64,000 nt of DNA. Origin: Candidatus Woesearchaeota archaeon. GTDB lineage: Archaea; Nanobdellota; Nanobdellia; Woesearchaeales; UBA10216. The DNA is taken from the NCBI GenBank assembly GCA_016185705.1, contig JACPMZ010000007.1, positions 107,157-171,156 on the forward strand. Reading direction: 5' to 3'. This document shows positions 3,632 to 54,939 of the stretch, one piece after another (positions within the stretch are counted from its first letter, which is position 1; every line of letters begins with the position of its first letter). The notes beneath the pieces are model-generated. The model was not told the DNA's origin and ran no database searches. It worked only from the letters and a program-made list of their open reading frames with translations. Position numbers and translations under genes: made by a program.

Positions 3632-4279
3632 ATGATGGACAATGCACAGTTGCAAATCAAGAAGGGCACAACCACTGTCGGAATTGTTTGCAAAGACGGC
3701 ATAGTGGTAGCTGCCGAGAAGCGCGCCACGATAGGCGGATTTATAGCTGACAAGCGTGCAGAGAAAATAGTGCTCATAACAGACAAGATGGTGCTGACAA
3801 CAGCAGGCACAGTAAGCGATGCGCAGCTGCTTGTAAAGCTCATTAGAGCTGAGCTCAAGCTGAAGCAGGTGCGCACCGGCCGGGAGGCAACAGTGAAAGA
3901 GGCAGCCAACCTGCTGGGCGGAATGATTTACGGCAACATCCGCAAGTTTTCAGTCATACCCGGCATAACGCAGTTTTTGCTTGCAGGCACAGACAATGAA
4001 GGAGAATTTTTGTATGACCTGTTCGTTGACGGCTCAGTGATGAAGATCAGCGATTATGTTTCTTCGGGCTCAGGCAGCATAGTAGTGTATGGAATCATGG
4101 AAGCAATGTACAAAAAAGAGATAGTAGTAAAGGAAGCAACTGACCTTGCGGTGAAAGCAATAAATGCCGCTATCCAGAGGGACAGCGCCTCAGGCAACGG
4201 CATTGTAGTTTTCGCAATAAGGAAGGATGGCATCAAGAAAATACTTGACAAAAACTTTGAATATGCCATCAAAGCGTGA
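3632..4279 (+). CDS. psmB: Proteasome subunit beta
   Basis: Propeptide followed by GTTTVGI with N-terminal Thr nucleophile; Ntn-hydrolase length about 215 aa. Confidence 0.9.
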   Translation: MMDNAQLQIKKGTTTVGIVCKDGIVVAAEKRATIGGFIADKRAEKIVLITDKMVLTTAGTVSDAQLLVKLIRAELKLKQVRTGREATVKEAANLLGGMIYGNIRKFSVIPGITQFLLAGTDNEGEFLYDLFVDGSVMKISDYVSSGSGSIVVYGIMEAMYKKEIVVKEATDLAVKAINAAIQRDSASGNGIVVFAIRKDGIKKILDKNFEYAIKA

Positions 4280-4307
4280 AGGGTTTCTCTGACACGGGAG
4301 AATTCTA

Positions 4308-6200
4308 ATGGCTGACATAATAAAAGAAATCATGAAAAATCTGCCCGAAGACAAGATAAGCGTGGCAGCATTTGAAGGAGCAAACATAGTGCTCTACACC
4401 AAAGACACCTCTTTTTTCCTGAACAACGAAGGCATGATTAAACAGGCAGTTGATGAAGTAAAGAAGCGCATAGAGCTCAGATGCGATCCAAGCATAACAC
4501 TGGAACAGGAAAAAGCAGAAAAAATCATCCGCAAGCTCATACCTGAGGAAGCAAAGGTGTCCAACATACTGTTTGACGAGCAGCGCTCACAAGTAATTAT
4601 TGAAGCTGAAAAGCCCGGGCTGGCAATAGGCAAACAAGGCAGCATACTGCACGACATCAGGAAAGAAACATTCTGGGTGCCCACTGTCAGGCGGACACCC
4701 GCGCTGCGCTCAAAAATCATAGAAAACATCCGGGCAGTGCTCTACCAGTACTCTGACTACCGGCGCAAATTCCTGGACAAAATAGGCCACAGAATCTACG
4801 ACGGCTGGATTCGCGGCAAAAAGAACGAGTGGATAAGGTGCACATACCTTGGAAGCGGCAGGCAGGTAGGAAGAAGCTGTATACTGCTGCAAACGCCGGA
4901 ATCCCGCGTAATGCTGGACTGCGGAGTGGATGTAGCATCCGCGCAGGAGCCTTACCCTTTCCTTGAATCGCCGGACTTCGACATCAATGAGCTTGACGCA
5001 GTCATAATCAGCCACGCCCACCTTGACCACGTCGGATTCCTGCCTTACCTTTTCAAATTCGGCTACCGCGGACCAGTATACATGACCGAGCCAACAAGAG
5101 ACATAGCTGCACTGCTCCTCCTGGACTTCGTAAAGATAATGAACTCAGAAAACAAATCGCCAATATTTGATGTGGAGGACATAAAGGAAATGGTCAAGCA
5201 CACAGTAACGCTTGCATACGAAGAAGTGAGCGATGTAACACCAGACGTGCGCATCACACTCTACAACGCAGGCCACGTGCTGGGAAGCGCGATGGTGCAC
5301 CTGCATGTAGGCAACGGACTCCACAACCTGCTGTACACAGGAGACATGAAATTCGGCAGGACAACCATGCTGGAGCCAGCTGCTACGCAATTCCCCCGCC
5401 TGGAAACGCTCATGATAGAAGCAACGTACGGCGGCAAGGAAAACATAGGCACCCCCCGGGAAGAAACAGACGAAGCGCTGGCAGAGCTGATAATTGATGT
5501 AGCGAAGAACAATGGGAAAATACTGCTGCCAGTACTCGGAAGCGGAAGGGCGCAGGAAATAATGGTTACAGTCCACAACCTGGTAAAAGCAGGGCGCTTA
5601 GAGCCGCTTCCTGTTTACATAGACGGCATGGTGTGGGACATAACGGCCATCCACACAGCATACCCTGAATACCTGAATTCAACTCTCAGGAGGCAAATTT
5701 TCCACAAAGACGAAAACCCCTTCCTGTGGGAGATGTTCAAAGAAGTCGGAGGCCCCAAGGAACGGAAGCAGGTGATAGAATCAACAGGGCCATGCATAAT
5801 AATCGCAACATCCGGAATGCTTGTGGGCGGGCCTTCTGTTGAGTATCTGCGGGCACTGGGCGAGGATTCCAAGAATGCAATGGCGCTGACATGCTACCAG
5901 GGCGAAGGCTCGCTGGGAAGGCGCATTCAGCGCGGAGAACGCGAAATAAGCTTCAGCAACGGGCCAAAGCAGGAAATGCTCTATCTGAAATGCGCAATAC
6001 AGACAATCGAAGGCTTCAGCGCCCACTCAAACAGAAAACAGCTCCTTAATTTTATCTACAAATGCAGTCCCAGGCCGAAGAAAGTCATAGTAAACCACGG
6101 CGAAAGCTCAAAATGCCTGGACCTGGCGAGCGCAATACACAAACTCAACCGAATAGAGACTTCTGCACCAAGAAACCTGGAAGCGGTGAGGATAAAATAA
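4308..6200 (+). CDS. Archaeal CPSF1-type beta-CASP ribonuclease (KH domains + metallo-beta-lactamase + beta-CASP)
   Basis: HAHLDHVGFLP (HxHxDH) motif, N-terminal KH-like domains; 630 aa typical of aCPSF1/FttA. Confidence 0.9.
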   Translation: MADIIKEIMKNLPEDKISVAAFEGANIVLYTKDTSFFLNNEGMIKQAVDEVKKRIELRCDPSITLEQEKAEKIIRKLIPEEAKVSNILFDEQRSQVIIEAEKPGLAIGKQGSILHDIRKETFWVPTVRRTPALRSKIIENIRAVLYQYSDYRRKFLDKIGHRIYDGWIRGKKNEWIRCTYLGSGRQVGRSCILLQTPESRVMLDCGVDVASAQEPYPFLESPDFDINELDAVIISHAHLDHVGFLPYLFKFGYRGPVYMTEPTRDIAALLLLDFVKIMNSENKSPIFDVEDIKEMVKHTVTLAYEEVSDVTPDVRITLYNAGHVLGSAMVHLHVGNGLHNLLYTGDMKFGRTTMLEPAATQFPRLETLMIEATYGGKENIGTPREETDEALAELIIDVAKNNGKILLPVLGSGRAQEIMVTVHNLVKAGRLEPLPVYIDGMVWDITAIHTAYPEYLNSTLRRQIFHKDENPFLWEMFKEVGGPKERKQVIESTGPCIIIATSGMLVGGPSVEYLRALGEDSKNAMALTCYQGEGSLGRRIQRGEREISFSNGPKQEMLYLKCAIQTIEGFSAHSNRKQLLNFIYKCSPRPKKVIVNHGESSKCLDLASAIHKLNRIETSAPRNLEAVRIK

Positions 6201-6382: not shown

Positions 6383-6522
6383 AATTTCAAGTTAAGTGGC
6401 AAAACCGTCGCATCCTTCCCTGATTTTTTTCTCCCCCCCTTAAAAAATAAGGGGGGAGAAAAAAATCAGCCAAGCAGGCATCGGCAAGCTCAGGATTGCA
6501 GGACACACAACTTGATATTACC
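6383..6522. mobile_element. Repeat element family B, copy 1 (contains palindrome CTGATTTTTTTCTCCCCCCC-TTAAAAAATAA-GGGGGGAGAAAAAAATCAG)
   Basis: Copies at 11585-11688 (same orientation) and 41752-41893 (reverse orientation). Confidence 0.6.
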
Positions 6523-6565: not shown

Positions 6566-7447
6566 ATGCAGCAGCTTATACATTTAGTCGTCCTTGCAGC
6601 TTTAGCGGTGGGCAGCTACACTGACTTCAAAACGAGGGAAGTTCCTGACTGGCTTAATTACGGCTTAATTGTTTTCGGAGTGGGCGTTAACCTGCTGCTG
6701 TCAATAGTTTTCTGGACATGGAGCTACATTGCCTACAGCATTATAGGACTGGCGCTGTTCATTGGCATAGCATGTGCCCTGTATTATTCCGGGCAGTGGG
6801 GCGGAGGGGACAGCAAAATGCTCATCGGCCTTGGAGCAGTGTTCGGGCTGCCAATATCTTTTGCGTGGCCTTATGTCAGCATGAATGCCTTTCTGATAGC
6901 GTTCTGGTTTAACCTGCTTATGGCAGGGGTTGTTTACGCAATGCTGTGGAGCATATACCTTCTTATAAAAAATTACAGGAAATTCCTGAAGGAAGCAGGA
7001 AAAGAAATGGTAAGGAAGAGAAAAATGAGGCGGCTGTCGCTGGCAGCGGCGATAGCAGCGCTGATTGCAGCAATAGCGATAAGCGACTTCCAGCTGAAAC
7101 TTCTGCTGACAGCAGCAGGGCTGCTCACAATCCTTACAATTTATTACACAATCTACTCCAAAGCAATTGAAAAAGCAGGAATGCACAAGCTCGTAACCCC
7201 AGCAGAGCTTACAGAAGGCGACTGGGTGGTGGAAGACGTAAAAGCCGGCAACAAATTAATTGCCAGCCCCAAAGACCTGGGAGTTACGAAAAAGCAGATA
7301 AAAATCCTGAAGCAGCTTTACGCGAAGCGAAAGATAAGAAAAGTCCTAATCAAAGTCGGCCTGCCGTTCGTGCCAAGCTTTTTTGCAGCGATGCTGCTGA
7401 CCATTCAATACGGGAATCTGTTCATGGCGCTGGCCGGGCTGCTGTAG
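6566..7447 (+). CDS. Type IV prepilin/preflagellin peptidase, A24 family, with C-terminal extension
   Basis: Polytopic membrane protein with the two catalytic Asp motifs SYTDFKTREVPD and GGGDSKML. Confidence 0.75.
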   Translation: MQQLIHLVVLAALAVGSYTDFKTREVPDWLNYGLIVFGVGVNLLLSIVFWTWSYIAYSIIGLALFIGIACALYYSGQWGGGDSKMLIGLGAVFGLPISFAWPYVSMNAFLIAFWFNLLMAGVVYAMLWSIYLLIKNYRKFLKEAGKEMVRKRKMRRLSLAAAIAALIAAIAISDFQLKLLLTAAGLLTILTIYYTIYSKAIEKAGMHKLVTPAELTEGDWVVEDVKAGNKLIASPKDLGVTKKQIKILKQLYAKRKIRKVLIKVGLPFVPSFFAAMLLTIQYGNLFMALAGLL

Positions 7448-7566
7448 CTGCAGCAATCTATGCAATGCTCTGGAGCATATATCTGATAATAAAAAATTAC
7501 AGAAAATTCCTGAAGGAAGCAGGCAAAGTTAATGAAGGAGGAAGCCCGCAGAAAAATACCTGCGCC

Positions 7567-8085
7567 CTAAGGCAACCTGTCCAGCTGCCTCATCATGTAA
7601 TCGCCTTCGCTGGAATCCAGTGTTTTGTCTTCGTCGTTAATGGTGAGCGGCTTTTTCTCATTCTTCTGAAACCCGCCGATGTTCCTGGTTTGTTCCTTCA
7701 GCTGCAGCTCAATTGTTGACAAGTCGTCTTCTGACAAGCGCTTGGGAGCCCAGTTGAAGCCCATGCCGTCGTTTTCTGAGCGGGGAATAATGTTTATGGC
7801 AAAATGGGCAATTTTTTGGCCTGCTGCCAGGCCGTTTTCAATTATTATGTTTGTGCCGTGCACCCTTAATGTTTCGAAAATAGACGTGGAAACTGCGTTT
7901 GCCACGCTGAAAAGATGCCCGGCAAGAAAATCAGGAACCTGCTCCAGAATGGTCAGGTGGTCCTTGGGCAGCACCAGAACATGCCCGAGGCTGGCCGGCT
8001 CAGGGCTCAGAGCAACCACTACCCTGTCGTCCTCGTAAATGTGAGTGCCGCTTTCAGCAATTTCGCAATAATCACACTTTGCCAT
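7567..8085 (-). CDS. HIT-superfamily protein, degenerate histidine triad (AHFAINIIPR)
   Basis: N-terminal CDYCEI and GHVLVLPKDH motifs typical of HIT proteins; triad reduced to a single His. Confidence 0.65.
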   Translation of the reverse strand: MAKCDYCEIAESGTHIYEDDRVVVALSPEPASLGHVLVLPKDHLTILEQVPDFLAGHLFSVANAVSTSIFETLRVHGTNIIIENGLAAGQKIAHFAINIIPRSENDGMGFNWAPKRLSEDDLSTIELQLKEQTRNIGGFQKNEKKPLTINDEDKTLDSSEGDYMMRQLDRLP

Positions 8086-8770
8086 CTGCCAGCACCCCTG
8101 TCAGCGAATCCAAATCAAACGGTCCAGGATTTTCAGCATCGCTGCTGCCTTTTTTCTTTTTCTTCGCAGTTTTTTTCAGTTTATTGGCAGCGGTTTTGGC
8201 AGGTTTGTCAGAAGCTTTCGGCTTCCCGGTTTTTGGTTTCCCGTCTTTTTGTTCCTTGGCTGGATTATCCCCAACCACCTCTGCCTCTGCTGCCAATTTT
8301 TTGGCAACAACTTTTTTCAGAACACCGGCGACAGCATCCATGTCCTTTTTGTCAAAAGGCCGCGAAGGAACAGCCATCCTGATGTTGTCGCTGTCATTCC
8401 TCGGAATTATGTGTATCATGAAATGAGGCGCACGCTGGCCAGCTGCAACTCCGTTTGCGATGAAAATAGTGGTGCCTTTGCACTGCAGCCCCTTAAGCGC
8501 AGCCTGCGAAAGCCCCTTAGTAACCATGAAAAGATGCTCAGCAAGCTCCTCAGGCAGCTGCGGCATCACAGAAAAATGCTCCTTCGGCATCAGCAGAATG
8601 TGCCCCTTAGCAGCAGGGTTGATGTCAAGCACAGCTATTGACTCTTCGTCAGAATAAACCTCCTTCGCAGGAACCCTGCCTGAAGAAATCTGGCAGAAAA
8701 CGCAGTTCTGCTTCTGAAAATCAGCGAGCTCCTCAGGACTCATCTGGGAAAGCTCCTCCTCGGTTACCAT
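8072..8770 (-). CDS. HIT-superfamily protein with Lys-rich C-terminal tail, triad PHFMIHIIPR (middle His absent)
   Basis: CVFCQI, GHILLMPKEH motifs; paralog of the downstream gene; 14-nt overlap. Confidence 0.65.
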   Translation of the reverse strand: MVTEEELSQMSPEELADFQKQNCVFCQISSGRVPAKEVYSDEESIAVLDINPAAKGHILLMPKEHFSVMPQLPEELAEHLFMVTKGLSQAALKGLQCKGTTIFIANGVAAGQRAPHFMIHIIPRNDSDNIRMAVPSRPFDKKDMDAVAGVLKKVVAKKLAAEAEVVGDNPAKEQKDGKPKTGKPKASDKPAKTAANKLKKTAKKKKKGSSDAENPGPFDLDSLTGVLADGKV

Positions 8771-9229
8771 AGTGTTATCACTTCTTGCTTATTCTATATA
8801 AATTTTTGGAGTATGTCTGCAAGCACTGTATTGGGCTATGATGTTCCAGGAATCCAAATTCCTTTGAATATGAAAGTTGAGAAGTAGGATAAATTGCCAG
8901 CAGCTTTACGTGAAATGCAAGCATCATCAAAAATATTTCAAGCACACTTTGAATTTAAGCGAGGGGATGTGAGTGGTTGGAGGAAATCGCCAATAAAAAT
9001 TTCCCTTGAAGAACTCTTTAACAAGCACACCATCCAGCCACCAGATACAACTCAATAGCTTCCTTTATGTTCCTTAATGATTCTTCCTTGATATGTCCTT
9101 ATCCTGTCCCGAAGAATACACAATATCTTGTAAGGTCGCTTAGTGGGGAAAAACGAATGTTAGCAGCATAAGTTTGGACTCGGCAAAAGCGAAATGTTTA
9201 TATATGACAATGCATTACAATGCGTTACA

Positions 9230-54096: not shown

Positions 54097-54939
54097 TTAC
54101 GCTAATTTAACCCCGCCGCTGGGCAAAGCCCTTATGATTTCGTCAAGCTCTCCACCAATCCTATGCTGAATTTTTTTTGCGGCTGCAGAGGTTTTTTCGC
54201 TGCCCTGCCTTATCTCCACAAAATTTTTGCACTGCTTTCTGACAGCAGCGACCGGGCCGCACATAATTGAGCCATCATCAGCCATTCCAACTGCCAGTTT
54301 CAATTCAGCAAGCATATCAGCTGTTTTCCCCTTAATTATAAACGAGCCCTTTTCCAGGTATTCTCCGGGCTTAGGGGATCGCGATAACTGTTCAGGCTTA
54401 ACATAAAAAACGTCTGCATGCGACAATCCAAGCTTCCAAGCCCTTGAAAATGCAGCGGTTGCAATGGCAGCTTCCTCCAGCGTATTCTGACCAACCTTTT
54501 TGTTCTCAGCCTTGACAACAAAGAAGGGCGAGCCCTGCATCTGCGCATGAAAAACAATGTCATTATTTTCAGCGTGCTTCTTAACAACAATCTCATTCGT
54601 AGCAGCGTCCCGGCCGCCAACGCACAGAAAGCCCTCGCTTGAAACAAACCACCTGAACTTTTCATACCACTTCTTTTCCCTGGCGCTTTTACCGGATTTT
54701 TCAACAGCAGCAAGCCCCTTTTTTTGCAACAACAGCTCCAGCTGCTGCTGACTCTTTTCCAGAGCCTTCTCAGCGCCAGCAAGCTTTCTTTTGGCTTTTT
54801 TGGCAGCTTCAAAGTAAGATGCAGCGTTTTCATCAATTGTTTTGCGAATGTCTAAACTAATTTCCATAGCTGATAAAACTGCGGAGCGCTTTATAATTTT
54901 TTCTGCATGAGGTGGGGAAATTAATCCTGCACCAGCCAT
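54097..54939 (-). CDS. NFACT-family protein with DUF814 (NFACT-R) domain
   Basis: Coiled-coil N-terminus; VGGRDAATNE and IVFHAQMQGSPFFVVK motifs. Confidence 0.6.
   Translation of the reverse strand: MAGAGLISPPHAEKIIKRSAVLSAMEISLDIRKTIDENAASYFEAAKKAKRKLAGAEKALEKSQQQLELLLQKKGLAAVEKSGKSAREKKWYEKFRWFVSSEGFLCVGGRDAATNEIVVKKHAENNDIVFHAQMQGSPFFVVKAENKKVGQNTLEEAAIATAAFSRAWKLGLSHADVFYVKPEQLSRSPKPGEYLEKGSFIIKGKTADMLAELKLAVGMADDGSIMCGPVAAVRKQCKNFVEIRQGSEKTSAAAKKIQHRIGGELDEIIRALPSGGVKLA

What the first reader, a model, noticed from the sequence alone, without database searches (positions are those of the whole stretch)
7567..8770. Overlapping pair of HIT-like proteins that both lack the nucleophilic middle histidine
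Both proteins carry the N-terminal Cys motif (CDYCEI / CVFCQI) and the GH(V/I)L(V/L)(L/M)PK(D/E)H motif of HIT hydrolases. Their histidine-triad positions read AHFAINIIPR and PHFMIHIIPR, so the central His that forms the nucleotidyl-enzyme intermediate is replaced by Ala or Met in both. The second protein also has a 90-aa Lys/Ala/Pro-rich tail. This points to a non-catalytic nucleotide-binding role or an unusual mechanism.
Basis: partly seen in the sequence, partly recalled or inferred. Interest (0 to 1): 0.5.

Follow-up and report, generated by a model that had tools for sequence, protein, structure and literature searches.

The report
Paired dead HIT proteins in Woesearchaeota
Two adjacent genes of a tiny uncultivated archaeon encode a matched pair of "histidine triad" nucleotide-hydrolase look-alikes that have both lost the catalytic histidine. 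The pair is kept, and sometimes fused, across hundreds of related species, so it most likely works as a nucleotide-binding adaptor rather than an enzyme.

Summary
Gene B (8072-8770, minus strand, 232 aa) and gene A (7567-8085, minus strand, 172 aa) overlap by 14 nt. Both are clear HIT-fold proteins. Their triads read H-F-M-I-H (B) and H-F-A-I-N (A), so neither has the nucleophilic middle His.

This is not an error or a one-off.
- Relatives of B occur in 477 species-level Woesearchaeota/Nanoarchaeota genomes.
- B is followed directly by A in 78 of 80 loci examined; the other two are cut by the contig end.
- At least five natural B-A fusions exist.
- The middle position of B is Met in 118 of 120 close homologues, or Leu/Ile/Val in more distant ones. 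Every other nucleoside-, phosphate- and zinc-binding residue of B is invariant.
- A has lost the ribose-binding Asp, and its triad varies.

Each protein ends in a disordered spacer followed by its own conserved C-terminal peptide: LDDI(A/S)xLF in B and EDYLLRQLRRIP in A.

Best reading: a non-catalytic heterodimer in which B holds an adenylate-type ligand and the tails dock partner proteins. The only PDB match to the B tail is the ribosomal stalk aP1 C-terminal peptide (E=0.22). This is suggestive, not proven. I rate it a new variant of a known kind, apparently undescribed.

The parts
8072..8770 (-). Gene B: HIT-fold protein of 232 aa. It has an N-terminal helical extension, a HIT core, a disordered spacer and a C-terminal peptide.
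   Evidence: ORF. Pfam HIT E=1.3e-18. PDB HIT proteins E=7e-20. 100% identical to an NCBI 'HIT domain-containing protein [Candidatus Woesearchaeota archaeon]'. AF2 core pLDDT is above 90.
8708..8770 (-). B residues 1-21: conserved N-terminal extension, consensus '..EE.L..MSPEEL.EFQK.N', just before the CxxC motif.
   Evidence: Conserved in the family. Predicted as helices 4-8 and 12-22 with pLDDT 90-93.
8693..8704 (-). B C23-V-F-C26: CxxC zinc motif. F25 corresponds to adenine-pocket residue F19 of HINT1.
   Evidence: C23, F25 and C26 are invariant in 120 of 120 homologues.
8411..8425 (-). B degenerate triad H116-F-M118-I-H120. The nucleophile position is Met.
   Evidence: Codons CAT TTC ATG ATA CAC. 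Alignment to solved HIT proteins. Met in 118 of 120 homologues, Leu in 2. Among distant representatives the triads are HMH 95, HLH 19, HIH 13, HVH 2.
8126..8275 (-). B residues about 166-215: disordered charged spacer. It is Lys/Ala/Pro-rich in this genome.
   Evidence: pLDDT below 50. Length and charge are not conserved in the family.
8090..8119 (-). B residues 218-227, F-D-L-D-S-L-T-G-V-L: the conserved C-terminal peptide. Family consensus is (V/S)-L-D-D-I-(A/S)-x-(L/F/M)-(L/F)-(G/K).
   Evidence: The motif lies within 12 residues of the C-terminus in 310 of 367 B-type proteins. It is predicted as a short helix, 220-229. The only PDB hit of its profile is the aP1 stalk peptide 5yt0_B, E=0.22.
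7567..8085 (-). Gene A: paralogous HIT-fold protein of 172 aa, 34% identical to B, with a degenerate pocket.
   Evidence: ORF. Pfam HIT E=1.6e-15. PDB E=3.9e-16. B versus A BLASTP E=2e-31.
8072..8085 (-). 14-nt overlap of the B stop region with the A start. This suggests translational coupling in one operon.
   Evidence: Coordinates. B is directly followed by A in 78 of 80 related loci.
8065..8076 (-). A C4-D-Y-C7: CxxC zinc motif.
   Evidence: Both Cys are present in all 66 homologues that cover this position.
7792..7806 (-). A degenerate triad H94-F-A96-I-N98. Both the nucleophile and the third His are lost.
   Evidence: Codons CAT TTT GCC ATA AAC. Alignment. In the family the middle residue is A 34, S 18, M 14, I 4, V 3, with the remaining few other residues; the third residue is N 49, H 19, E 4, D 3, S 1.
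7570..7608 (-). A residues 160-172, E-G-D-Y-M-M-R-Q-L-D-R-L-P: conserved extreme C-terminal peptide. Consensus is (D/E)(E)(E/D)(N/D)-Y-L-(L/I)-(K/R)-Q-L-R-R-I-P.
   Evidence: From 129 unique tails selected for an R-[ILVMT]-P terminus: Y in 117 of 129 at position -10, and Q in 92 of 129 at position -6. Independently, the last three residues are 'riP' in the 76-homologue family consensus. The peptide is found only in A-family proteins among 4173 ORFs scanned. No meaningful PDB match.
8795..8802 (-). Putative archaeal TATA box TTTATATA, preceded by an A-run. Its centre lies about 28 nt upstream of the B start codon, which implies a leaderless or near-leaderless B-A transcript.
   Evidence: Read directly from the sequence. 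The function is inferred.
7552..7556 (-). T5 run 11-15 nt after the A stop codon. It is a possible archaeal oligo-T terminator for the operon.
   Evidence: Read directly from the sequence. The function is inferred.

Best explanation
B and A are a two-gene operon, fused into one gene in some relatives. They encode two paralogous HIT-fold proteins that assemble as a HIT-type heterodimer and have given up covalent catalysis.

B keeps a complete, invariant adenosine/ribose/alpha-phosphate pocket and the structural zinc site. A hydrophobic residue (Met, or Leu/Ile/Val) sits where the nucleophilic His should be. An Arg/Lys sits where HINT1 has Ser107. B should therefore bind an AMP-X type ligand, such as a nucleoside monophosphate, a dinucleoside polyphosphate, an aminoacyl- or acyl-adenylate, or an adenylated end, and hold it rather than cleave it.

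A has a degraded nucleoside pocket. It most likely serves as the structural partner and scaffold.

Each subunit carries a disordered spacer ending in its own conserved short peptide, which acts as a docking handle for other proteins. The complex would thus link ligand occupancy to partner binding.

Shown here: fold, loss of the nucleophile, conservation pattern, obligate pairing and fusion, disordered spacers with conserved end peptides.

Inferred: heterodimerisation, ligand binding, the adaptor or sensor role. The identity of ligand and partners is unknown.
For: Fold and triad loss.
- Pfam and PDB alignments.
- Foldseek of the AF2 model gives TMt 0.75-0.90 to zinc-bound HIT proteins.

Conservation under selection.
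- 1068 homologues of B.
- 727 clusters at 50% identity with E<=1e-30.
- 477 species-representative genomes.
- In B, F25, D49, H57, H65, N106, G111, Q112, H116 and H120 are 120/120; M118 is 118/120; R/K113 is 119/120.
- In HINT1 the equivalents are the adenine pocket, the ribose-binding Asp43 and the nucleophilic His112. H112N is stable but inactive. The central His is the nucleophile in the family mechanism.

A is degenerate.
- The Asp43 equivalent is kept in 10 of 76 homologues, and the middle and third triad residues vary.

The two act as a unit.
- B is followed by A on the same strand in 78 of 80 loci; the other 2 are cut by a contig end.
- They overlap by 14 nt here.
- Five B-A single-chain fusions exist, always in that order. 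One was verified as a continuous ORF in an NCBI MAG.
- The AF2 model of a fusion has pLDDT 80 and pTM 0.79 with both domains confident. It superposes over about 300 columns on GalT-type proteins, which are two HIT halves in one chain (TM 0.45-0.57).

Tails.
- The spacer is disordered and variable in length and charge.
- The end peptides are conserved.
Against: - No biochemical data exist for any member.
- Heterodimerisation is inferred from operon structure, fusions and a single-chain model built from only five sequences.
- Ligand binding by B is inferred from residue conservation only.
- A direct-attack (non-covalent) hydrolysis or phosphorolysis using His120 and Arg/Lys113 cannot be ruled out from sequence.
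- A few relatives keep a His at the middle position. P0322 has H-A-H-I-H in its B domain at the same genomic position. One A protein in L025 has H-F-H-L-N. The ancestor was therefore probably an enzyme, and some members may still be.
- The partners of the two end peptides are unknown.
Confidence: 0.55

Rival explanations
1. The pair is still an enzyme but uses an unusual, non-covalent mechanism. Water or phosphate attacks the alpha-phosphate directly, activated by the retained third His (H120) and the new Arg/Lys113 of B. A acts as a regulatory or substrate-binding subunit.
For: B keeps the whole pocket, including H120, H65 and H57, and gains an invariant basic residue at the Ser107 position. 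Such strict conservation of phosphate-contacting residues would also be expected of an enzyme. A relative with an intact triad occupies the same locus.
Against: In all characterised HIT branches the central His is the nucleophile, and its loss inactivates the enzyme. The replacement is a non-polar Met that is interchangeable with Leu, Ile or Val, so it was not selected for chemistry. No new polar or nucleophilic residue appears at or next to the position.
Confidence: 0.15
2. The pair is an aprataxin-like reader of adenylated or damaged nucleic-acid ends. It would be tethered to the sliding clamp PCNA by the B end peptide read as a non-canonical PIP box, with the basic tail binding DNA.
For: The B peptide has the 1-4-7-8 hydrophobic spacing shared by PIP boxes and sits near the C-terminus, as in many archaeal PCNA clients (PIP consensus from general knowledge). 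The tail is basic in this genome. Some relatives carry an extra Cys/His-rich module 'KFH...CPF...C.C' in the tail.
Against: The defining Gln of the PIP box is Leu in 286 of 310 tails, and the aromatic pair is usually LF, LL or FL. Tail charge is not conserved: 55% of tails are net negative, down to -70. This argues against a general DNA-binding tail. The extra module is not recognised by Pfam and is present in only a minority. No DNA-repair genes are conserved next to the pair.
Confidence: 0.12
3. The pair is a purely structural or moonlighting relic. The HIT fold is retained as a scaffold or chaperone-like module, with no ligand in the former active site.
For: Both nucleophiles are lost. A's pocket is clearly decaying. 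DPANN genomes contain many reduced or repurposed proteins (general knowledge).
Against: A scaffold-only role does not explain why nine pocket residues of B are invariant in 120 of 120 homologues while the surrounding surface and tail vary freely.
Confidence: 0.08
4. The finding is a sequencing, assembly or annotation artefact, such as a frameshift or a mis-called start, that hides an intact triad.
For: None found.
Against: The same residues are encoded in hundreds of independent assemblies from different sources. The triad codons read cleanly in frame.
Confidence: 0.01

Closest known systems
Zinc-binding Hint-branch HIT proteins (e.g. B. subtilis Hit 1Y23, B. anthracis 3IMI, M. smegmatis 3O0M, S. 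tokodaii ST2152 2EO4)
   Same: Same fold and size: E down to 7e-20, about 30% identity, TMt up to 0.90. They share the CxxC + GH + first-triad-His zinc site. B has the same nucleoside and phosphate contacts.
   Different: These enzymes have H-x-H-x-H and form homodimers. Here the nucleophile is Met (B) or Ala (A), and the Ser107 equivalent is Arg/Lys in B. There are two diverged paralogues in an obligate pair or fusion, with added disordered tails and end peptides.
Nucleophile-dead HIT mutants that still fold and bind substrate (Fhit H96N, PDB 2FHI; HINT1 H112N)
   Same: These are functional analogues. A HIT protein without the middle His is stable, inactive and can still hold substrate (2FHI appears among the structural hits; H112N is stable but inactive).
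   Different: Those are laboratory or disease mutants of active enzymes. Here the dead state is the natural, conserved state of a whole lineage, in both subunits.
GalT / GalT-like ADP-glucose phosphorylase (1HXQ, 1Z84, 2H39): two HIT-like halves in one chain
   Same: The natural B-A fusions have the same overall plan of two HIT halves in one polypeptide. The fusion model aligns over about 300 columns with TM 0.45-0.57. One half is more degenerate than the other.
   Different: GalT keeps a nucleophilic His (HxHxQ) and is a transferase. Sequence identity is only 12-14%. Here neither half has a nucleophile.
CwfJ C-terminal HIT-like domains (CWF19L2 / Drn1; Pfam PF04677)
   Same: A weak Pfam match of B to CwfJ_C_1, E=5e-6, and a structural hit to CWF19L2 in the spliceosome, 6id0_U. 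These are double HIT-like modules in one chain that sit in a ribonucleoprotein complex rather than acting as free-standing hydrolases.
   Different: The relationship is distant (11% identity). CwfJ proteins are eukaryotic, have a different architecture and lack the two end peptides.
C-terminal tail of the archaeal ribosomal stalk protein aP1/aP0
   Same: Both have an E/K-rich disordered spacer followed by a short amphipathic helix at the C-terminus, with hydrophobic residues at -8, -5, -2 and -1. These correspond to aP1 L100, L103, L106 and F107, which bind aEF1A. The B-tail profile finds only the A. pernix aP1 peptide in the whole PDB (E=0.22).
   Different: 108 metagenomic aP1 tails have an invariant Gly at -6 and end strictly in LFG. 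B has an invariant Asp at -7 and a looser ending. Individually these aP1 tails all score below zero on the B motif matrix. The globular domain is HIT, not the P1 dimerisation domain.

Membership tests
HIT superfamily (Pfam PF01230), Hint branch | HIT alpha+beta fold | tested here: met
   Pfam E=1e-18 (B) and 1e-15 (A). PDB sequence hits. AF2 plus Foldseek TMt up to 0.90.
HIT superfamily (Pfam PF01230), Hint branch | H-phi-H-phi-H-phi-phi motif with the central His as nucleophile | tested here: not met
   B has H-F-M-I-H and A has H-F-A-I-N. The loss is conserved in the families.
HIT superfamily (Pfam PF01230), Hint branch | Nucleoside and alpha-phosphate contacts (HINT1 F19, I22, D43, H51, N99, Q106, H114) | tested here: met
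   Met for B: all equivalents are 116-120 of 120. Not met for A: Asp43 equivalent in 10 of 76, adenine pocket variable.
HIT superfamily (Pfam PF01230), Hint branch | Structural zinc site (CxxC + His + first triad His) of the zinc-binding subgroup | tested here: met
   All four ligands are conserved in both proteins by sequence. Metal binding itself cannot be tested here.
HIT superfamily (Pfam PF01230), Hint branch | Dimer | tested here: inconclusive
   A heterodimer is suggested by the obligate operon, natural fusions, a fusion model with pTM 0.79 and GalT-like superposition. No multimer prediction or experiment is available.
HIT superfamily (Pfam PF01230), Hint branch | Nucleotide hydrolase or transferase activity | not testable with these tools
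   Needs enzyme assays.
Ribosomal P-stalk C-terminal tail (aP1/aP0) | Disordered charged spacer plus a C-terminal amphipathic helix with hydrophobic residues at -8, -5, -2, -1 | tested here: met
   aP1 contact residues are.
Ribosomal P-stalk C-terminal tail (aP1/aP0) | Consensus ..(E/A)-G-L-(S/G/A)-(A/S)-L-F-G at the C-terminus | tested here: not met
   102 of the 108 metagenomic aP1 tails end in FG, and in all 102 G at -6, L at -2, F at -1 and G at 0 are invariant. B has D at -7 and D/K/S at -6, and ends variably in LFK, LFG, LLGG and others. As a population, aP1 tails score above random C-termini (Mann-Whitney p=1e-27), but each scores below zero. Only the A. pernix type 'VDLSGLSGMFG' scores well, at 12 bits.
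Ribosomal P-stalk C-terminal tail (aP1/aP0) | Binds aEF1A, aEF2, aIF5B | not testable with these tools
   Needs binding assays or complex prediction.
PCNA-interacting PIP box | Q-x-x-(L/I/M)-x-x-(F/Y/W)-(F/Y/W) | tested here: not met
   Position 1 is Leu in 286 of 310 tails. The last two positions are mostly L/F/M and L/F.
Aprataxin | Active HIT triad plus C-terminal C2H2 zinc finger | tested here: not met
   There is no nucleophile and no zinc-finger domain was detected in the window proteins.

The most novel reading that the evidence does not exclude
The B tail is a mimic of the ribosomal stalk (aP1/aP0) C-terminal tail. A catalytically dead HIT heterodimer that senses an adenylate-type metabolite (Ap4A, aminoacyl-AMP or similar) would use this stalk-like handle to capture translational GTPases (aEF1A, aEF2, aIF5B) or ABCE1 away from the ribosome. 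This would couple nucleotide or aminoacylation status to translation in genome-reduced DPANN archaea. The A peptide '..EDYLLRQLRRIP' would recruit a second, unknown partner.
Probability: 0.2. Interest if true: 0.8.

Novelty: new variant of a known kind. Interest (0 to 1): 0.55.

Why it matters
HIT proteins are studied as nucleotide hydrolases. Several, such as Fhit and HINT1, have long been suspected of signalling through the substrate-bound state rather than through turnover.

Here nature appears to have fixed that state. A whole archaeal lineage keeps a paired, sometimes fused, nucleophile-free HIT module with one intact ligand pocket and two conserved docking peptides.

This gives a clean system for three questions: what a HIT pocket 'reads' when it cannot cleave, how enzyme-derived heterodimers become adaptors, and what regulatory links exist in DPANN archaea with minimal genomes. 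These genes are currently annotated only as 'HIT family protein', which would wrongly suggest hydrolase activity in metabolic reconstructions.

Tried and rejected
1. Frame or indel rescue of the triad. Rejected: the codons are clean and the substitutions recur in hundreds of homologues.

2. Met118 as a metal ligand in an H-x-M-x-H site. Rejected: Met is replaced by Leu, Ile or Val in 34 of 141 distant representatives.

3. The basic tail as a conserved nucleic-acid-binding element. Rejected: tail charge ranges from -70 to +27.

4. Functional clues from gene neighbourhood. Only a convergent A24 prepilin peptidase recurs widely (42 of 80 loci). UPP synthase (21) and an upstream NFACT-R gene (16) recur less often. 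None is in the same transcription unit, so this is lineage synteny and not a functional link.

5. Fusion model with a deep alignment. MAFFT split the single-domain sequences across both halves, so I used only the five fusions.

6. A-tail profile against the PDB. It gave only two unrelated chance hits, E 0.5-0.8. This also shows that E=0.22 for the B tail is not significant on its own.

7. Looking for the lineage's own stalk protein. No aP1 gene lies in the window or in the 80 related loci. A metagenome scan gave 108 aP1 tails of unknown taxonomy, all of the generic GL(S/G)xLFG type. Whether Woesearchaeota aP1 resembles the B tail remains open.

8. The extra Cys/His module in some B tails. Not recognised by Pfam.

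9. Literature. No paper in the library combines 'histidine triad' with 'pseudoenzyme' or with 'DPANN'.
Full report
**What is there.**
The window is from a Candidatus Woesearchaeota (DPANN) genome. Both proteins are 100% identical to NCBI entries of that taxon on a 250-kb contig. On the minus strand, gene B (8072-8770, 232 aa) is followed by gene A (7567-8085, 172 aa) with a 14-nt overlap. Other assemblies carry the same two gene calls.

A TTTATATA box lies with its centre about 28 nt before the B start codon. A T5 run follows the A stop codon. This fits one short, probably leaderless, operon. The promoter and terminator roles are inferred.

**Checking the observation.**
Both proteins match Pfam HIT (E=1.3e-18 for B, 1.6e-15 for A) and solved HIT proteins (best E=7e-20 and 4e-16). 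The gap-free alignments put B 'PHFMIHIIPR' and A 'AHFAINIIPR' under the canonical 'H-x-H-x-H-(I/V)-(I/V)-P-R'.

B is therefore H116-x-M118-x-H120, and A is H94-x-A96-x-N98. The codons read cleanly. In the family mechanism the central His is the nucleophile and the C-terminal His donates a proton. In HINT1 the nucleophile is His112, and H112N is stable but inactive. A has additionally lost the third His.

**This is a conserved state, not an accident.**
- B has 1068 database homologues. Of the best 120, 118 read HxMxH and 2 read HxLxH.
- A profile search of 1.84 billion cluster representatives finds 727 clusters at E<=1e-30. Among the 141 newly returned proteins of the best 150, the triads are HMH 95, HLH 19, HIH 13 and HVH 2.
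- The middle residue is thus a hydrophobic filler. This also argues against a metal-ligand role for the Met.
- A has 76 homologues with a variable middle residue (mainly A, S, M, with a few I and V) and a variable third residue (N, H, E, D, S).
- A scan of one genome per species found relatives in 477 genomes. The best 80 are nearly all labelled Woesearchaeota, Nanoarchaeota or Nanoarchaeia, or simply 'archaeon', or carry the 'uncultured Methanosarcinales' label, which I take to be a placeholder. One is labelled Binatia bacterium, probably mis-binned.

**The two genes are one unit.**
- In 78 of the 80 loci, B is immediately followed by A on the same strand. The other two loci end at the contig edge.
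- Five distinct proteins (P0014, P0024, P0197, P0198, P0199; 43-48% identical to P0014) are B-A fusions in that order.
- P0014 is a continuous 1065-nt ORF in an NCBI MAG.
- B and A are paralogues, 34% identical over 131 residues.
- An AF2 model of the P0014 fusion has mean pLDDT 80 and pTM 0.79, with both domains confident.
- Foldseek matches each half to zinc-bound HIT proteins (TMt up to 0.90). It matches the whole chain over about 300 columns to GalT-type proteins, which are two HIT halves in one chain (TM 0.45-0.57).

A HIT-type heterodimer is therefore the most economical reading. It is not directly shown.

**What is kept and what is lost.**
B aligns to HINT1 with a constant offset of six residues across the N-terminal part and the triad region, with a one-residue shorter loop between Asn106 and Gln112. 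I used this to tabulate the known ligand contacts (roles) across both families.

In B, the following are 120/120:
- adenine-pocket Phe25
- ribose-binding Asp49
- His57 and His65
- Asn106, Gly111 and Gln112
- His116 and His120
- both zinc cysteines

Ile28 is 116/120. Only two pocket positions differ from active enzymes: Met118 at the nucleophile (118/120) and Arg/Lys113 at the Ser107 position (119/120).

In A, the Asn, Gly, Gln, first-His and zinc-site positions are kept. The ribose Asp is present in only 10 of 76, and the adenine-pocket residues vary.

This asymmetry is the main basis for proposing that B still binds an AMP-X type ligand without cleaving it, while A is a structural partner. 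The new basic residue could contact an extra phosphate or carboxylate of the ligand. That last point is speculation.

**Tails.**
The AF2 model of B shows these regions:

| B residues | Model feature |
|---|---|
| 1-130 | Confident core, including the conserved N-terminal helices |
| 141-165 | Helix |
| about 167-215 | Disordered stretch |
| 220-229 | Short helix |

Across 356 homologues the spacer is 21-248 aa long, E/K-rich, and has a net charge from -70 to +27.

What is conserved is the end. In 310 of 367 B-type proteins the motif L-D-x-I-(A/S/T)-x-(L/F/M)-(L/F) lies within 12 residues of the C-terminus. Some tails carry it twice.

A ends in an equally conserved peptide, (D/E)(E)(E/D)(N/D)-Y-L-(L/I)-(K/R)-Q-L-R-R-I-P. 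This peptide occurs in no other protein among 4173 ORFs scanned.

**Who binds the tails.**
Before searching, I noted that the B ending has the same hydrophobic spacing as the archaeal ribosomal stalk tail. There, aP1 residues L100, L103, L106, F107 and G108 bind aEF1A. The P. horikoshii tail sequence was verified against 3wy9_C.

Evidence for a resemblance:
- A profile of 24 B tails, searched against all 177,635 distinct PDB sequences, returned exactly one hit. It was the A. pernix aP1 C-terminal peptide KKKKKKEEEVDLSGLSGMFG (5yt0_B, E=0.22).
- A position-specific score matrix built from the B tails gives the A. pernix tail 12 bits. Only 3 of 657 other C-termini beat it.

Evidence limiting it:
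- The E-value is not significant by itself. The control profile of A tails gives unrelated hits at E 0.5-0.8.
- The P. horikoshii tail is not distinguishable from background (p about 0.09).
- 108 aP1 tails retrieved from metagenomes are of the generic (E/A)GL(S/G)(A/S)LFG type. They score above random C-termini as a population (p=1e-27), but each scores below zero.

The resemblance is therefore real at the level of architecture and spacing but fails the strict stalk consensus. A PIP-box reading shares the same spacing but lacks the defining Gln. I could not obtain the Woesearchaeota stalk protein itself. I keep 'stalk-tail mimic' as the most novel reading not excluded, at about 0.2.

**Context.**
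The only widely conserved neighbour is a convergent A24 prepilin peptidase (42 of 80 loci; in the window at 6566-7447). UPP synthase (21 loci) and an upstream, divergently oriented NFACT-R gene (16 loci) recur less often. None is co-transcribed with the pair, so I treat this as synteny only.

**Exceptions.**
P0322 is a B-A fusion whose first domain reads H-A-H-I-H. It lies next to an A24 peptidase gene on its contig, as the pair does in this window, with one extra gene between. One A protein, in L025, reads H-F-H-L-N. The ancestor was probably an active enzyme paired with a degenerate partner.

**Comparison and novelty.**
The proteins belong to the HIT fold superfamily and are closest to zinc-binding Hint-type proteins. 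They fail the defining catalytic motif, so they should not be filed as HIT hydrolases.

They work most like nucleophile-dead Fhit or HINT1 mutants, but as a natural, lineage-wide, two-subunit or fused module with docking peptides. No paper in the searchable library links 'histidine triad' with 'pseudoenzyme' or with DPANN archaea. Public annotation is only 'HIT family protein'.

I rate it a new variant of a known kind, with interest 0.55. The function rests on inference.

Noticed in passing
window 6935-7004 and 7459-7528: A 70-nt direct repeat at 89% identity. An internal piece of the A24 prepilin-peptidase gene (6566-7447) is duplicated just after that gene's stop codon, in the short spacer before the end of gene A. 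It creates a spurious 84-aa ORF at 7465-7719 that begins with the same peptide, 'MLWSIYL.IKNYRKFLKEAGK'.
   Followed up: partly
window 6405-6484: A strong palindrome: 34-nt arms, 82% complementary, 12-nt loop, with C6/G6 and T7/A7 runs. It lies in the gap between the FttA/aCPSF1 gene (4308-6200) and the A24 peptidase gene. It could be a terminator or a regulatory hairpin.
   Followed up: no
window 54097-54939 (-), and 16 related loci (e.g. L040 1993-2781): A protein with an NFACT-R RNA-binding domain, of the ribosome-quality-control family (Pfam E=4e-32). It carries '..GG(D/E)LDEIIRALP(A/S)GG..' about 10 residues from its C-terminus. These were the only non-HIT proteins to score high on the B-tail motif matrix. 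In 16 of 80 related loci this gene sits just upstream of the pair. Whether this is a shared docking motif or a chance match inside a folded domain is open.
   Followed up: partly
homologues P0081, P0090, P0115, P0284, P0329, P0336, P0359, P0379 (tails of B-type proteins): Some B tails carry an extra Cys/His-rich module of about 45 aa, '..KFH...CPF......I.F.S..EA...G..PC.C..', either inserted in the spacer or at the very end. Pfam does not recognise it.
   Followed up: partly
L204 166-1164 (protein P0322); L025 1567-2094: Rare relatives keep a middle His. P0322 is a B-A fusion whose first domain reads H-A-H-I-H and whose second reads H-V-C-A-H. It lies near an A24 peptidase gene, with one extra gene between. 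One A protein, in L025, reads H-F-H-L-N.
   Followed up: partly
window 3632-6200: A proteasome subunit gene (3632-4279) and the transcription termination factor FttA/aCPSF1 gene (4308-6200) lie next to the A24 peptidase gene. The same order, peptidase then FttA then proteasome, is seen in several related loci.
   Followed up: no
loci L003, L006, L008 and others (titles): Many species-representative MAGs that carry this Woesearchaeota-type operon are titled 'uncultured Methanosarcinales archaeon', and one is titled 'Candidatus Binatia bacterium'. These look like placeholder or mis-binned taxonomic labels.
   Followed up: no
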